From: a virus
Lineage: Duplodnaviria; Heunggongvirae; Uroviricota; Caudoviricetes
Virus record (IMG/VR): IMGVR_UViG_3300029253_000315
Reading direction: 5' to 3' (one strand)
DNA length: 4,535 nucleotides
The notes under the pieces were generated by a model. That model saw only the letters and a program-made list of their open reading frames with translations, made no database searches and was not told the DNA's origin. Shown in pieces: positions 1-4,437 of this stretch (the stretch's first letter is position 1; each line of letters starts with the position of its first letter). The position numbers and the translations under genes were made by a program.

Positions 1-510
1 GATGCACCGATCATCTCAATAGGTGCAATATTTTTCGATCCGCAAACCGGAGATATAGGACCGGAATTTAGTAAGACTATCGATCTGGAAACTGCTGGCG
101 GAGTCATTGATCGGGACACCATTAAATGGTGGCTTAAGCAATCACGCGAAGCGCAATCTGCCATTATGACCGATGAAATCCCGTTAGATGATGCACTGTT
201 ACAATTGCGGGAATTTATCGACGAAAACTCCGGTGAATTTTTTGTTCAGGTCTGGGGAAATGGAGCCAACTTCGACAACACAATTTTGCGCCGTTCATAC
301 GAACGGCAGGGGATCCCCTGCCCGTGGCGTTACTACAACGATCGCGATGTACGCACAATCGTTGAGCTGGGGAAAGCCATAGACTTCGATGCCAGAACGG
401 CTATTCCATTCGAAGGTGAGCGCCATAATGCACTTGATGACGCCCGTTACCAGGCAAAATACGTTTCAGCTATCTGGCAAAAACTGATCCCGAGTCAGGC
501 TGATTTTTAA
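1..510 (+). CDS. Phage-associated DEDDh (DnaQ/RNase T-like) 3'-5' exonuclease, 5'-partial: frame 1 is open from base 1, so the N-terminus (including the Exo I motif) lies upstream of the window
   Basis: Frame 1 has no stop from 1 to the TAA at 508-510. The translation contains an Exo II-like motif (WGNGANFDNTIL) and an Exo III-like motif (HNALDDARYQAKY, His-x4-Asp pattern). Its position upstream of xis-int matches the accessory (ea-like) region of lambdoid prophages. Family assignment is from motif recall, not a database search. Confidence 0.6.
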   Translation, partial: DAPIISIGAIFFDPQTGDIGPEFSKTIDLETAGGVIDRDTIKWWLKQSREAQSAIMTDEIPLDDALLQLREFIDENSGEFFVQVWGNGANFDNTILRRSYERQGIPCPWRYYNDRDVRTIVELGKAIDFDARTAIPFEGERHNALDDARYQAKYVSAIWQKLIPSQADF

Positions 511-568: not shown

Positions 569-772
569 ATGAGCAGCTTATTTTTAACCGAAGATGAATT
601 GCTAATATTAACGGGCTGCAAATATGCAAGCCACCAGCGAAAATGGTTAATGGAAAACGGGCTTCCGTTCTATACCAATCGTAGTGGCAAACCGATTGTC
701 AGCCGGGATCTATTTACCTGCAATAAAACTTTACCACCACGCGAGGTAGAGCCGAATTTTGGTGCGATCTGA
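569..772 (+). CDS. Small excisionase-like protein (DUF4224-like; putative recombination directionality factor)
   Basis: 67-aa ORF immediately upstream of the integrase, with its stop overlapping the integrase start (TGATG, 770-774). The N-terminal segment LFLTEDELLILTGCK...WLMENGLPFY resembles DUF4224-type proteins typically encoded next to phage integrases. Function inferred from context and recalled family similarity. Confidence 0.5.
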   Translation: MSSLFLTEDELLILTGCKYASHQRKWLMENGLPFYTNRSGKPIVSRDLFTCNKTLPPREVEPNFGAI

Positions 773-1797
773 TGGGAAGACGAAGGAAAAATCCTGAACA
801 CGAAAAATTACCTCCAAATGTATACCCAAATAAATATAGTTATGTATGGAAACCAACATCCAGAGAATCTGTCACACTAACCGCCATCAAGGATGGTTTA
901 GCTGCTTTATGGAAAAAGTATGAGGAAACTGTAAATAATCGCGATCGTGCAATGACATTCGGTCGCTTGTGGGAAAAATTCCTCGCCAGCGCCTATTACA
1001 GTGACCTTAGTCCAAGAACACAAAAAGATTATCTGCAACATCAAAAAAAATTGCTTGCCGTATTCGGTAAGGTACCAGCGGATTCCATAAAACCAGAACA
1101 CATCCGTCGATACATGGACAAAAGAGGGGAGCAGAGTAAAACGCAAGCCAACCATGAAAAAAGCAGTATGTCCCGTGTTTACAGTTGGGGGTATGAGCGA
1201 GGGTACGTCAAGGCTAACCCATGTGCAGGTGTAAGTAAATTCAAGGCCAAAAACCGCGAACGATATGTAACCGACAAAGAATACCAGGCAGTATTAAGCG
1301 TTGCACCTCTTCCTGTTTTTATCGCAATGGAAATTGCCTATCTGTGTGCAGCGAGGGTTTCCGATGTGTTATCGCTGAAATGGGAACAGATTGGAAACGA
1401 CGGGATATTCATCCAGCAAGGGAAAACCGGAAAAAAACAGATAAAAGCATGGAGTCCACGATTACAGGCAGCGATCGAAAAAGCAAAACAGTTACCAAAA
1501 TCTGCCTATGTGATCAGCAATCAATACGGCAACCGATATATGTACAAAGGCTTTAACGAAATGTGGGTAGAAGCAAGAAATCGTGCTGGAAAAATTTCAG
1601 GTATTTTAACCGACTTCACCTTTCATGATCTGAAGGCGAAAGGAATTTCAGACTATGAAGGAAGCAGCCGGGATAAGCAACTTTTCTCTGGTCACAAAAC
1701 CGAAGGGCAAGTGCTAATCTATGACAGGAAGGTTAAAGTTTCACCAACACTTGATGTCCCGTTACCTGAAAATATTCCAAGAAAATATTCCAAGTAA
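772..1797 (+). CDS. int: Lambda-family tyrosine recombinase (prophage integrase), with Lys at the Arg-II position
   Basis: 341-aa ORF. The C-terminus aligns by eye with the lambda Int catalytic region: ARVSD (Arg-I, codon 1354-1356), QGKTGKK, FHDLKAKG (His 1624-1626; Lys 1633-1635 where Arg-II is expected), SGHK (His 1693-1695), LIYDRK (Tyr nucleophile 1720-1722). It sits 52 bp from the 3' end of tRNA-Ser. Confidence 0.9.
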   Translation: MGRRRKNPEHEKLPPNVYPNKYSYVWKPTSRESVTLTAIKDGLAALWKKYEETVNNRDRAMTFGRLWEKFLASAYYSDLSPRTQKDYLQHQKKLLAVFGKVPADSIKPEHIRRYMDKRGEQSKTQANHEKSSMSRVYSWGYERGYVKANPCAGVSKFKAKNRERYVTDKEYQAVLSVAPLPVFIAMEIAYLCAARVSDVLSLKWEQIGNDGIFIQQGKTGKKQIKAWSPRLQAAIEKAKQLPKSAYVISNQYGNRYMYKGFNEMWVEARNRAGKISGILTDFTFHDLKAKGISDYEGSSRDKQLFSGHKTEGQVLIYDRKVKVSPTLDVPLPENIPRKYSK

Positions 1798-1804
1798 TTC
1801 CAAG
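1772..1804 (+). repeat. Three direct repeats of ATTCCAAG (1774-1781, 1787-1794, 1797-1804) spanning the int stop codon; candidate arm-type integrase binding sites of the attachment region
   Basis: Read directly: aatATTCCAAGaaaatATTCCAAGtaATTCCAAGtg. Spacing is 13 and 10 bp. Location is between the int coding end and the tRNA 3' end where the att core is expected. Confidence 0.35.
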
Positions 1805-1849
1805 TGTGATTTTTGTCACTGACTTAATGATGTGTAAGTGATTGAATTT

Positions 1850-1939
1850 TGGCGGAGAGAGGGGGATTTGAACCCCCGGTGGAGTTGCCCCCACTCCGGT
1901 TTTCGAGACCGGTCCGTTCAGCCGCTCCGGCATCTCTCC
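1850..1939 (-). tRNA. serU: tRNA-Ser (anticodon CGA), 90 nt with long variable arm and encoded CCA
   Basis: The reverse complement of 1850-1939 reads GGAGAGATGCCGGAGCGGCTGAACGGACCGGTCTCGAAAACCGGAGTGGGGGCAACTCCACCGGGGGTTCAAATCCCCCTCTCTCCGCCA. It has a 7-bp acceptor stem (GGAGAGA/TCTCTCC), an anticodon stem CCGGT/ACCGG with loop CTCGAAA (anticodon CGA), and a T-arm GGGGG-TTCAAAT-CCCCC. The serU assignment rests on recalled E. coli K-12 synteny (serU-mtfA-asnT). Confidence 0.93.
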
Positions 1940-2930: not shown

Positions 2931-3006
2931 TCCTCTGTAGTTCAGTCGGTAGAACGGCGGACTGTTAATCCGTATGTCACTGGTTCGAGTCCAGTCAGAG
3001 GAGCCA
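2931..3006 (+). tRNA. asnT: tRNA-Asn (anticodon GUU), 76 nt with encoded CCA
   Basis: Sequence TCCTCTGTAGTTCAGTCGGTAGAACGGCGGACTGTTAATCCGTATGTCACTGGTTCGAGTCCAGTCAGAGGAGCCA, with anticodon loop CTGTTAA (GTT), matches the E. coli tRNA-Asn as I recall it. The asnT copy is assigned by adjacency to mtfA. Confidence 0.95.
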
Positions 3007-3168: not shown

Positions 3169-4437
3169 ATGTCTTTAAACGATTCTAAAATCCGCAAGTT
3201 AAAATCTTCTTCCCGTCCGGTAAAACTCTCCGACTCTCACGGTCTGTATCTGCTCGTCAATCCGGGCGGTTCACGCATCTGGTATCTCAAATATCGTTTC
3301 AACGGAAAAGAATCCAGAGTCAGTCTTGGCGCATACCCGCTGGTCTCACTGGCAGAAGCCAGGCAACAGCGCGACGGTATCCGCAAGTTACTGGCGCAGA
3401 ATATCAACCCGGCGCAGCAGCGCATGGCAGAGAAAGCCGCCTGCTCCCCTGAAAAGTGCTTTAAAGCGGTGGCGGTGGCGCTGGCCTGGCACAAAACCAA
3501 CAAAAAATGGTCGGCTGATTATGCCGCCCGTATTCTCGCCAGTATGGAAAACCATATCTTCCCGGCGGTTGGTCATTTGCCCGTTGCCAAACTTAAAACG
3601 CAGGATTTCACTGCCCTGCTGAGGGTTATTGAGGATAAGGGCTTTCTGGAAGTCGCGTCCCGCACGCGGCAGCAACTCAGCAACATCATGCGCTATGCCG
3701 TATAGCAGGGGCTTACCGAAAGCAATCCGGCGCAGCATCTGGATGGCGTTGTCTCCTCCCCCGTAAAGAATCACTACCCCGCGTTACCGCTGGAGCGGTT
3801 GTCCGAACTGCTTGGCCGCATCGGTGACTATCAGCAGGGCCGGGAGTTAACCCGGCTGGCGGAGGTGCTGACACTGCACCTGTTCATCCGTTCCAGCGAA
3901 CTGCGTTTCGCCCGCTGGAGCGAGATCGATTTCAGGCACAAAATCTGGACCATCCCCGCCACCCGCGAGGCCATCGACAAAGTTCGGTTTTCGGGGCGTG
4001 GCGCAAAAATGCGTACTCCGCATATCGTACCGCTCTCCCGCCAGGCGATTGCCCTTCTGAAACAGATACAGGAGCTTTCCGGCCATCTGGATCTGGTGTT
4101 TCCCGGCGATCATAATCCGTACAAGCCAATGAGCGAAAACACAACCAACCGGGCGCTGCGCCTGATGGGGTATGACACGAAAACTGAAATCTGCGGGCAT
4201 GGACTCAGGGCAATGGCCTGTAGCGCCCTGGTGGAGTCGGACCTGTGGTCACGCGATACGGTGGAGCGGCAAATGAGCCACCAGGAGCGCAACAGCGTGC
4301 GGGCGGCATATGTGCATAAAGCAGAGCATCTGGAGGCCAGAAAGGCCATGATGCAGTGGTGGTCGGATTATCTGGATGTGTGCCGCGAGGGGTATGTTGC
4401 GCCGTACATTTATGCCCGGCAGCATAAGGCAGCCTGA
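3169..4437 (+). pseudogene. int: P4-family (phage/island-type) tyrosine integrase interrupted by one in-frame amber codon (TAG at 3703-3705); fragments 3169-3705 and 3706/3799-4437 are in the same frame
   Basis: ORF-track entries 3076..3705 and 3799..4437 are both in frame 1, and I translated 3706-3798 with no further stop. The product from the ATG at 3169 starts MSLNDSKIRKLK...GLYLLVNPGGSRIWYLKYRFNGKESRVSLGAYP, an N-terminus typical of P4-type integrases. The downstream part carries catalytic-domain motifs (IRSSELRFARWSEIDF, CGHGLRAMA, VRAAYVHKAEHLEARKAMMQWWSDYLD). It lies immediately 3' of tRNA-Asn in the same orientation, the usual arrangement for asn-tRNA islands. GGAG at 3154-3157 is a plausible Shine-Dalgarno. 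Confidence 0.8.

What the first reader, a model, noticed from the sequence alone, without database searches (positions are those of the whole stretch)
1624..1722. Lambdoid integrase carries Lys (AAG) where the second catalytic Arg is expected
In the box II region the protein reads F-H-D-L-K-A-K-G, whereas lambda Int has H-E-L-R (His308, Arg311). The downstream His (GHK) and the Tyr nucleophile (LIYDRK) are in the expected positions. Arg-II is close to invariant in tyrosine recombinases. The codon AAG at 1633-1635 is one transition away from AGG (Arg). This may be a lineage-specific variant or a subtle catalytic defect in an otherwise intact gene.
Basis: partly seen in the sequence, partly recalled or inferred. 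Interest (0 to 1): 0.45.

Follow-up and report, generated by a model that had tools for sequence, protein, structure and literature searches.

The report
Integrase clade with active-site lysine
This prophage integrase does carry lysine where almost all relatives have a catalytic arginine, but the lysine is an old, strictly conserved trait of a large group of apparently working phage integrases, not damage to this gene.

Summary
Observation confirmed. The 341-aa integrase (772-1797, +) reads F-H-D-L-K-A-K-G. AAG at 1633-1635 encodes K288, which aligns with lambda Int R311 (Arg-II). R195, K218, H285, H308 and Y317 are in place.

The Lys is a lineage trait, not a lesion. All 120 closest database homologues (55-99% identity) have Lys. 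Among the 150 best 50%-identity cluster representatives, 95 have Lys and 39 have Arg. In a neighbour-joining tree built with that column masked, the Lys forms make one clade of 80, explained by a single R->K change with no reversal. Both AAA and AAG occur. dN/dS against the Sakai Sp14 orthologue is 0.04.

Lys-form integrases occur in phages ST64B, ZF40 (record source: induced lysogen) and mEp390. Sp14 Int is 332/341 identical, and Sp14's excised attP junction has been sequenced (Asadulghani 2009).

The window holds a clean attR: a hybrid tRNA-Ser(CGA) with the crossover block in the anticodon stem-loop, an upstream Xis-like gene, and candidate arm sites.

Natural Lys at Arg-II is documented as rare (0.5%; Gibb 2010), and Cre R292K is active. 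Verdict: an ordinary, functional variant of low-to-moderate interest. The kinetics of a natural Lys-II enzyme remain untested.

The parts
1..510 (+). 3' end of a prophage exonuclease gene (C-terminal Rv2179c-like 3'-5' exoribonuclease domain). It runs off the left edge of the window and is the early-left-operon neighbour of xis-int.
   Evidence: Pfam PF16473, E=3.5e-60. PHROG exonuclease families phrog_2082 and phrog_20376, E=1.3e-94. The orthologous full-length gene is annotated 'exonuclease' in Sakai Sp14.
569..772 (+). Xis-like recombination directionality factor, 67 aa, DUF4224. Its stop codon overlaps the int start codon (TGATG at 770-774).
   Evidence: Pfam PF13986, E=1.9e-15. PHROG phrog_1266 'excisionase', E=3.1e-21, full length. 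The overlap is read directly from the sequence.
772..1797 (+). Lambda-type tyrosine integrase, 341 aa, with an intact ORF. Active-site residues are R195 (1354-1356), D198, K218 (1423-1425), H285 (1624-1626), K288 (1633-1635, the Arg-II position), H308 (1693-1695) and Y317 (1720-1722).
   Evidence: PF00589 scores 44.9 bits against a cut-off of 27.1. phmmer hits lambda Int over residues 1-313. The AlphaFold2 model has pLDDT 87.5, and the best Foldseek hit is lambda Int 1z1b_A (E=2.3e-16, TM 0.66). The C-terminal ...NIPxKYSK is conserved in homologues down to about 60% identity.
1633..1635 (+). AAG codon for K288. This is the residue in the Arg-II (lambda R311, Cre R292) position and is the subject of the finding.
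1774..1804 (+). Three direct copies of ATTCCAAG (1774, 1787, 1797) that span the int stop codon. They are candidate P'-arm (arm-type) Int binding sites of attR. This is an inference.
   Evidence: Three matches against 0.23 expected by chance. The same motif is conserved at +40 (inverted) and +105 (direct) from the core in the otherwise diverged P arms of the EC931 and Sakai Sp14 prophages.
1850..1939 (-). tRNA-Ser(CGA) (serU) at attR, a hybrid gene. The 3' part (window 1850-1892) is phage-supplied and the 5' part is bacterial.
   Evidence: ARAGORN. Comparison with the K-12 empty site and with attL of EC931 and Sakai. The two differences from K-12 form one compensatory variable-arm base pair.
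1893..1911 (.). A 19-bp block, ACTCCGGTTTTCGAGACCG, identical in attL, attR and attB. The strand-exchange region must lie inside it. It corresponds to the anticodon stem-loop (anticodon at 1903-1905).
   Evidence: Three-way alignment of attR (window), attB (K-12, L009) and attL (EC931 L006; Sakai L008).

Best explanation
The gene encodes a functional lambda-type tyrosine integrase of a serU-integrating lambdoid prophage of the Sakai Sp14 type. It belongs to a large, old gammaproteobacterial clade whose catalytic set is R-K-H-K-H plus Y instead of R-K-H-R-H plus Y.

A single ancestral R->K substitution at the Arg-II position was fixed and has been maintained by selection since. Shown here: the conservation, the single-origin pattern, the intact remainder of the active site, and the intact attR context.

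Inferred from published Cre and TopIB mutant work: K288 does the job of Arg-II. Its ammonium group would contact a non-bridging oxygen of the scissile phosphate and help stabilise the transition state and the Tyr317 leaving group, while R195, K218, H285 and H308 play their usual roles.

Together with the upstream DUF4224 Xis-like protein and arm-type sites, the enzyme would recombine attP with the anticodon stem-loop of tRNA-Ser(CGA), and the phage would restore the 3' half of the tRNA.
For: (1) Position: K288 aligns with lambda R311 by phmmer and MAFFT. Arg-bearing relatives carry R in the same column.

(2) Conservation: 120/120 homologues at 55-99% identity have K, with H285 and Y317 also 120/120. 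Of the 150 best 50%-identity representatives out of 7,248 hits, 95 have K and 39 have R.

(3) Single origin and no reversal: in a neighbour-joining tree of 116 full-length sequences built with column 288 masked, all 80 K forms make one clade, and Fitch parsimony needs one change.

(4) Selection: both AAA and AAG encode the Lys in different members. Window against Sakai int shows 51 synonymous and 9 non-synonymous differences, dN/dS 0.04. R195 and K218 are kept in 88/88 K forms, H285 in 87/88 and H308 in 84/88 (R195 and Y317 were selection criteria for this set).

(5) Working elements carry it. Sakai Sp14 sits at serU, and its Int is 332/341 identical with the same motif. Circular Sp14 was detected and the attP junction sequenced as site-specific attL x attR recombination (PMC2669165). 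ST64B, ZF40 (record source 'induced lysogen'), mEp390, Evi and BUCT709 are all K forms. ST64B excision has been quantified by attP qPCR (PMC12455584).

(6) Context: a precise attR with hybrid tRNA-Ser and a 19-bp identity block. serU is occupied in about 1,150 of 5,426 complete E. coli genomes and empty in most others. In 38 of 60 other species examined, K-form ints lie just upstream of an opposite-strand tRNA-Ser or tRNA-Leu gene.

(7) Chemistry precedent: Cre R292K is active in vivo and in vitro, and vaccinia TopIB R223K keeps about 10% activity. Arg-II is K in 0.5% of family members (PMC2943603).

(8) Fold: the model matches full-length lambda Int.
Against: No recombination assay exists for this protein or, as far as I could find, for any purified K-form integrase.

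The Sp14 evidence is qualified. Circles were seen only after mitomycin C and at low level. The authors considered the Sp14 Xis probably non-functional and attributed amplification to regional replication driven by Sp15.

For ST64B, a second chromosomal integrase (IntA) was reported to recombine its att sites, so ST64B mobility is not unambiguous proof for Sb28.

The engineered Cre R292K accumulates covalent intermediate, which indicates a ligation defect. A natural Lys could therefore carry a kinetic cost.

PGAP flags this int as 'frameshifted' in two genomes. However, the 341-aa frame and its C-terminus are conserved in diverged homologues.

The ON470580 'phage' record with a 100% identical Int contains host genes and is not evidence of a virion.
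Confidence: 0.85

Rival explanations
1. The Lys is a damaging lesion. The integrase is catalytically crippled and the prophage is stuck or decaying.
For: Arg-II is 99.1% conserved in the family, and most Cre R292 substitutions kill or nearly kill activity. AAG is one transition from AGG. Sp14 excises only weakly. PGAP labels the gene a pseudogene in some genomes. The EC931 copy of the prophage carries an IS66 insertion and an exonuclease gene with an internal stop.
Against: Lys is invariant in 120/120 close homologues and in a monophyletic clade of 80 representatives. Both Lys codons are used. dN/dS is 0.04. The other active-site residues are almost fully conserved across the clade. Isolated or inducible temperate phages carry the Lys. 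[quoted passage not shown]
Confidence: 0.04
2. K288 sits in the Arg-II slot, but the guanidinium function is supplied by another arginine recruited from elsewhere in the fold. The precedent is IntDOT, which lacks Arg-I and uses a downstream Arg. Candidates are R319 (Y+2, in the YDRK motif) or an Arg contributed in trans.
For: There is precedent for a relocated catalytic Arg in the IntCTnDOT subgroup (PMC8138268). R319 is Arg in 91% of K forms against 54% of R forms. Position 318 (Y+1) is D/N in K forms but I/L/V in R forms.
Against: R319 is also common in Arg forms, and some K forms replace it with V/H/L, so it is not a K-specific requirement. No Arg in the catalytic domain is exclusive to K forms. 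Lys alone suffices for activity in Cre R292K and TopIB R223K. All covariation here rests on a single R->K event and cannot be separated from shared ancestry.
Confidence: 0.07
3. The alignment is wrong and the true Arg-II equivalent is a different, nearby residue.
For: Overall identity to lambda Int is only about 21%.
Against: Box II is aligned without gaps by phmmer and by two MAFFT runs. The flanking His-II and the downstream His-III and Tyr are in register. The nearest arginines are 17 residues upstream and 11 residues downstream. Relatives at 32-40% identity carry FHD[LI]RAK with R in the same column.
Confidence: 0.01

Closest known systems
Bacteriophage lambda integrase (PDB 1z1b, 1z1g, 1p7d, 1ae9)
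   Same: It has the same three-domain architecture: an N-terminal arm-binding region beginning MGRRR..LPPN.Y, a core-binding domain and a catalytic domain. It is the best sequence and fold match. The xis-int-att gene order is shared. Arg-I, Asp-I, Lys-beta, His-II, His-III and Tyr are conserved and in register.
   Different: Lambda has R311 where this protein has K288. Identity is about 21-22%. The target is the anticodon stem-loop of tRNA-Ser(CGA) rather than the lambda attB between gal and bio. The Xis is a DUF4224 protein, not lambda Xis. The C-terminal tail after the Tyr is shorter.
Integrase of E. coli O157:H7 Sakai prophage Sp14 (ECs_2773), described alongside CP-933U in the ST64B record note
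   Same: It is 332/341 aa identical, with the same FHDLKAKG box II and the same C-terminus. It has the same serU attachment site and the same 3' tRNA repeat. Sp14 was shown to circularise by attL x attR recombination (PMC2669165).
   Different: There are eight substitutions and one missing codon, mostly in the N-terminal half. The prophage cargo differs. Sp14 excision is weak and dependent on mitomycin C.
Salmonella phage ST64B integrase Sb28, and the Pectobacterium phage ZF40 and coliphage mEp390 integrases
   Same: They belong to the same Lys-form clade (59%, 50% and 48% identity), with FHDLKAKG[IV]SD and a Y-[DN]-R-K motif after the Tyr (YDRK in ST64B and ZF40; YNRK in mEp390). They come from temperate phages recovered as phage genomes; ZF40's record gives 'induced lysogen' as source. 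ST64B excision has been measured by attP qPCR.
   Different: They are more divergent and have different hosts. Their attachment sites were not examined here.
Engineered Arg-II to Lys mutants: Cre R292K and vaccinia topoisomerase IB R223K
   Same: The same active-site position carries Lys. These mutants show that Lys can support phosphoryl transfer: Cre R292K is active in vivo and in vitro, and TopIB R223K keeps about 10% activity (PMC2943603).
   Different: Those are single substitutions in Arg-adapted active sites, and they accumulate covalent intermediate (a ligation defect). Here the Lys is ancestral to a whole clade. It is accompanied by clade-specific neighbours: Cys192 in place of the usual Thr three residues before Arg-I, and Asp/Asn318 next to the Tyr.
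IntDOT and the CTnDOT-type integrases
   Same: They are another natural tyrosine-recombinase group that departs from the canonical catalytic set and is still active (PMC8138268).
   Different: IntDOT lacks Arg-I, not Arg-II, and replaces it with an Arg from another position. Here a Lys occupies the canonical slot.

Membership tests
Tyrosine recombinase / phage integrase family (Pfam PF00589) | Significant match to the family profile over the catalytic domain | tested here: met
   PF00589 scores 44.9 bits against a gathering cut-off of 27.1, E=1.4e-11, residues 183-317. PHROG phrog_1 'integrase', E=5.8e-54.
Tyrosine recombinase / phage integrase family (Pfam PF00589) | Tyrosine nucleophile near the C-terminus | tested here: met
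   Y317 aligns with lambda Y342. It is invariant in 120/120 close homologues.
Tyrosine recombinase / phage integrase family (Pfam PF00589) | Arg-I (box I), with the Glu/Asp three residues later | tested here: met
   R195 and D198 align with lambda R212 and D215.
Tyrosine recombinase / phage integrase family (Pfam PF00589) | Arg-II in the box II H-x-x-R motif | tested here: not met
   K288 occupies the column of lambda R311. The literature gives 99.1% R and 0.5% K at this position (PMC2943603). This is therefore a rare tolerated state, not grounds for exclusion from the family.
Tyrosine recombinase / phage integrase family (Pfam PF00589) | Beta-hairpin Lys (general acid), His-II and His/Trp-III | tested here: met
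   K218 = K235, H285 = H308 and H308 = H333.
Lambda-type heterobivalent integrases (arm-binding, core-binding and catalytic domains) | Three-domain fold including an N-terminal arm-binding domain | tested here: met
   phmmer aligns residues 1-313 to lambda Int 1-338, including MGRRR..LPPN.Y. The AlphaFold2 model has pLDDT 87.5. Foldseek hits full-length lambda Int 1z1b_A with E=2.3e-16 and TM 0.66 over 351 columns. The Pfam arm-domain model itself did not hit at E<0.01.
Lambda-type heterobivalent integrases (arm-binding, core-binding and catalytic domains) | Arm-type binding sites flanking the core in attP | tested here: inconclusive
   ATTCCAAG occurs three times next to the core in the window (0.23 expected). 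It occurs twice in the P arms of two diverged prophages. Binding was not tested.
Lambda-type heterobivalent integrases (arm-binding, core-binding and catalytic domains) | An adjacent recombination directionality factor (Xis) | tested here: met
   A DUF4224 / PHROG 'excisionase' ORF lies at 569-772 and overlaps the int start. Its function is inferred from family annotation only. The Sakai authors doubted the Sp14 Xis.
Lambda-type heterobivalent integrases (arm-binding, core-binding and catalytic domains) | Catalyses site-specific integration and excision | not testable with these tools
   The evidence is indirect only: precise attL/attR/attB junctions and published Sp14 circularisation with a sequenced attP.
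tRNA-gene-targeting integrases (element supplies the 3' part of the tRNA) | The int gene lies next to a tRNA gene whose 3' portion is duplicated at the other prophage end | tested here: met
   A 61-62-bp repeat of the serU 3' part lies at attL in EC931 and Sakai. The prophages are 47.0 and 44.0 kb. The crossover block lies in the anticodon stem-loop.

The most novel reading that the evidence does not exclude
The Lys-II clade may be a natural, adapted solution to running tyrosine-recombinase chemistry with Lys in place of Arg-II. It has at least 80 clusters at 50% identity, is spread across Enterobacterales, Aeromonas, Shewanella, Vibrionaceae and others, and mostly targets class II tRNA genes.

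In this reading, clade-specific second-shell changes compensate for the ligation defect seen in engineered R->K mutants. The candidates are Cys192 instead of the near-universal Thr of the 'TGxR' box I motif, and Asp/Asn318 next to the Tyr nucleophile. Alternatively, these changes deliberately shift the cleavage-ligation equilibrium.

If true, these enzymes would show which parts of the bidentate Arg-II role (phosphate contact and Tyr leaving-group activation) are dispensable. They would also offer a new scaffold for recombinase engineering.
Probability: 0.25. Interest if true: 0.5.

Novelty: already known. Interest (0 to 1): 0.25.

Why it matters
The result mainly guards against a misreading. 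An automated or manual check of the 'RHR-Y' signature would wrongly score this integrase, and about a fifth of complete E. coli genomes that carry it, as catalytically dead. That would label the serU prophages immobile. These include the O157 Sp14 element, which carries the effector genes espJ and tccP.

The data show instead that Lys at Arg-II is the normal state of a large integrase clade. A secondary value is that the clade offers a ready-made natural counterpart to the Cre R292K and TopIB R223K mutants for studying what Arg-II contributes to cleavage versus ligation.

Tried and rejected
(1) I first took 'Escherichia phage vB_EcoM-606R7' (100% identical Int) as proof of an active virion. 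I rejected this because the record is a 'partial genome' that includes the host genes mtfA, asnT and ybt, so it is a predicted prophage.

(2) Searching the Asadulghani paper for 'serU' matched only 'serum'. The Sp14-serU link came from the Sakai annotation and PMC8190617 instead.

(3) Nunes-Duby et al. 1998, the classic list of Int-family exceptions, is not held.

(4) Two full-text searches for described natural Lys-II integrases returned only the Gibb 2010 statistic. The Smyshlyaev 2021 classification does not mention lysine.

(5) The listing of cluster members returned no names for ten distant K-form representatives. I obtained taxonomic breadth from genome contigs instead. That scan required the K motif, so it shows breadth only, not the frequency of K.

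(6) I looked for an Arg exclusive to K forms that could substitute for Arg-II and found none. R319 is only enriched, 91% against 54%.

(7) The structure tools return no coordinates, so the K288 side-chain geometry relative to Y317 and the DNA could not be measured. Only fold-level similarity was obtained.

(8) The covariation of positions 192, 318, 302 and 297 with K/R cannot be separated from shared ancestry, because there is only one R->K event. I report it as a lead only.

(9) I considered the PGAP 'frameshifted' flag as evidence of decay. I set it aside because the 341-aa frame and its ...NIPxKYSK end recur in homologues down to about 60% identity, and the Sakai annotation calls the gene intact.

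Full report
**1. What is in the window**

The 4,535-bp window is E. coli chromosome at the serU-mtfA-asnT locus, with the right end of a lambdoid prophage. From left to right it contains:
- the 3' end of a prophage exonuclease gene (1-510; Pfam Rv2179c-like, E=3.5e-60);
- a 67-aa DUF4224 / PHROG 'excisionase' ORF (569-772);
- a 341-aa integrase (772-1797);
- tRNA-Ser(CGA) on the minus strand (1850-1939);
- mtfA (2033-2830) and tRNA-Asn (2931-3006);
- a P4-type integrase interrupted by an in-frame TAG (3169-4437).

The xis-like stop codon overlaps the int start codon (TGATG).

**2.

H285 is CAT 1624-1626, K288 is AAG 1633-1635, H308 is CAC 1693-1695 and Y317 is TAT 1720-1722.
- phmmer against all PDB chains finds lambda Int as the best match (1z1b_A, E=8e-13). 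It aligns 'tfhdlkakg' to 'tfhelrsls' without gaps, so K288 is the positional equivalent of lambda R311, the Arg-II of tyrosine recombinases.
- MAFFT alignments give the same column and pair R195/D198/K218/H285/H308/Y317 with lambda R212/D215/K235/H308/H333/Y342.
- The nearest arginines are R271 and R299, so a local misalignment cannot rescue an Arg.
- An AlphaFold2 model (mean pLDDT 87.5) matches full-length lambda Int best (Foldseek E=2.3e-16, TM 0.66). It matches the lambda catalytic core at 2.8-3.2 A rmsd.

**3. The Lys is a clade character, not a lesion**

- All 120 best homologues from the 5.8-billion-protein collection (55-99% identity) have Lys in this column. His-II and Tyr are also invariant.
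- An exhaustive phmmer search of 1.84 billion 50%-identity representatives gives 7,248 hits. Among the best 150, 95 have Lys, 39 have Arg, and the rest are fragments or odd. The Arg forms appear only among the most distant hits (about 32-40% identity) and read FHD[LI]RAK[AS]. This also confirms the column assignment.
- In a neighbour-joining tree of the 116 full-length sequences, built with column 288 masked and rooted on lambda Int, the 80 Lys forms make one clade. Fitch parsimony needs a single R->K change and no reversal. An NJ tree is a rough tool, but the separation is clean.
- Different members encode the Lys with AAA or AAG.
- Compared with the Sakai orthologue, the gene has 51 synonymous and 9 non-synonymous differences, dN/dS 0.04.
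- In the 88 Lys-form representatives (chosen for having Arg-I and Tyr), Lys-beta is kept in all, His-II in 87 and His-III in 84. An inactive enzyme would not preserve the rest of its active site this way.

**4. Elements that carry the Lys form are, or recently were, mobile**

*Sakai Sp14.*
- The Sakai prophage Sp14 sits at serU. Its integrase ECs_2773 is 332/341 identical to the window protein, with the same box II and the same C-terminus.
- Asadulghani et al. 2009 detected circular Sp14 by attP PCR after mitomycin C. They sequenced the junctions and concluded that the circles arose by site-specific attL x attR recombination (PMC2669165).
- The level was low, and the authors doubted the Sp14 Xis, so this evidence is qualified.

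*Named phages.* ST64B (Sb28), Pectobacterium phage ZF40 (record source 'induced lysogen'), coliphage mEp390, phage Evi and Stenotrophomonas phage BUCT709 all carry FHD[LI]KAKG. Xylella Xfas53 and Burkholderia KS5 are Arg forms.

*ST64B excision.* It has been quantified by attP qPCR (PMC12455584). That paper also implicates a second integrase in recombining the ST64B att sites.

*A record I discounted.* The 'phage' record ON470580, with a 100% identical Int, contains host genes and was not counted as a virion.

**5. The att site in the window is clean**

- Comparison with the empty site in K-12 and with the far ends of the EC931 and Sakai prophages shows a 61-62-bp repeat of the serU 3' part.
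- The attR copy in the window carries two phage-derived differences from K-12. These are the two sides of one variable-arm base pair: G48-C59 instead of A48-U59, a compensatory change.
- The only stretch identical in attL, attR and attB is ACTCCGGTTTTCGAGACCG (1893-1911), which is the anticodon stem-loop. Strand exchange must occur there.
- ATTCCAAG occurs three times across the int stop codon (0.23 expected by chance). It recurs at conserved offsets in the otherwise diverged P arms of two prophages. These are plausible arm-type sites for the lambda-like N-terminal domain (inference).
- About 1,150 of 5,426 complete E. coli genomes carry this int, and most others have an empty serU.
- In a one-genome-per-species collection, 255 loci encode relatives with the Lys motif, across Enterobacterales, Aeromonas, Shewanella, Vibrionaceae and others.
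- In 38 of the 60 loci examined, the int lies about 55-165 bp upstream of an opposite-strand tRNA-Ser(CGA), tRNA-Ser(TGA) or tRNA-Leu(TAA) gene. The clade has therefore kept integrating and has changed targets while retaining the Lys.

**6. How it most likely works**

Gibb et al. 2010 report Arg-II as 99.1% Arg and 0.5% Lys across the family.
- In the Cre transition-state mimic, Arg292 hydrogen-bonds a non-bridging phosphate oxygen and the Tyr phenolic oxygen.
- Cre R292K is active in vivo and in vitro but accumulates covalent intermediate.
- Vaccinia TopIB R223K keeps about 10% activity (PMC2943603).

By inference, K288 supplies the positive charge at the scissile phosphate while the other five residues act as usual. 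Whether the natural enzyme pays the ligation penalty of the engineered mutants, or has compensated for it, is unknown.

The residues that best separate Lys forms from Arg forms are:
- Cys192 against Thr, three residues before Arg-I (lambda T209);
- Asp/Asn318 against Ile/Leu/Val, next to the Tyr;
- Lys302 and Gly297.

With only one R->K event, this covariation cannot be told apart from shared ancestry. No Arg is exclusive to Lys forms. R319 is only enriched, 91% against 54%.

**7. Comparison with what is known, and verdict**

By homology, fold, gene context and att architecture this is a lambda-type tyrosine integrase. It fails one classical signature residue (Arg-II) in a way the literature already records as a rare natural state. 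The gene itself is essentially the Sp14-type integrase known since the O157 genomes.

I found no paper that describes the Lys-II clade as such. The clade-level picture may therefore be a small new observation, but it is not a new kind of system.

The 'lineage-specific variant' reading is supported, and the 'catalytic defect' reading is not. Interest is low to moderate. The value lies in avoiding false 'dead integrase' calls and in a natural counterpart to the R->K mutants.

Noticed in passing
window 1850-1939 (differences at 1881 and 1892): The tRNA-Ser(CGA) at attR is a hybrid. Its phage-supplied 3' part differs from K-12 serU at exactly two bases, tRNA positions 48 and 59. These are the two sides of one variable-arm base pair (G-C instead of A-U), so the phage copy keeps the tRNA fold.
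   Followed up: yes
window 1774-1804; L006 about 637 and 702; L008 about 3246 and 3312: ATTCCAAG is repeated three times across the int stop codon (0.23 expected by chance). It recurs at +40 (inverted) and +105 (direct) from the core in the P arms of two otherwise diverged prophages. These are candidate arm-type Int sites. The conserved Int C-terminus ...NIPxKYSK may partly reflect this DNA-level constraint.
   Followed up: partly
window 772-1822; L006 46475-47525; L007 3001-4048: NCBI PGAP annotates this integrase as a 'frameshifted' pseudogene in strains EC931 and F690, extending it 25 nt past the TAA. The Sakai annotation calls it an intact 340-aa integrase. The 341-aa frame and its C-terminus are conserved in diverged homologues, so the flag looks like an annotation artefact.
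   Followed up: partly
window 3169-4437 (TAG at 3703-3705): The P4-type (NCBIfam PRK09692-like) integrase next to tRNA-Asn is split by an in-frame TAG at codon 179. The 99.9%-identical gene in strain EC6563 is annotated as a pseudogene with an 'internal stop'. No 100% match was found among complete E. coli genomes.
   Followed up: partly
L001 (ON470580.1, 'Escherichia phage vB_EcoM-606R7'): This GenBank 'phage' record contains host chromosome: tRNA-Ser, mtfA, tRNA-Asn and the yersiniabactin genes ybtS and ybtQ. It is a predicted prophage with flanks, not a virion genome.
   Followed up: yes
L015-L074 (genome-contig loci): In 38 of 60 species, Lys-form integrases lie just upstream of an opposite-strand tRNA-Ser(CGA), tRNA-Ser(TGA) or tRNA-Leu(TAA) gene. 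All of these are class II tRNAs with long variable arms. The tRNA-Leu(TAA) gene is in some cases followed by tRNA-Cys.
   Followed up: partly
integrase residues 289 and 319 (window 1636-1638 and 1726-1728): Across both Lys and Arg forms, position 289 (usually Ala) becomes Arg/Lys/His in the sequences where position 319 (Tyr+2, usually Arg) is Val/Leu/His. Examples are KRK...YNV, KKK...YDL and KHK...YDH. This suggests a contact between helix K and the Tyr-bearing helix. It was seen by eye and not tested statistically.
   Followed up: no
L006 25465-27881 and 43700-46213 (strain EC931): In strain EC931 the serU prophage with a 100%-identical int carries an IS66-family insertion in the lysis region and an exonuclease gene with an internal stop. 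That particular prophage copy is decaying even though its int is intact.
   Followed up: no
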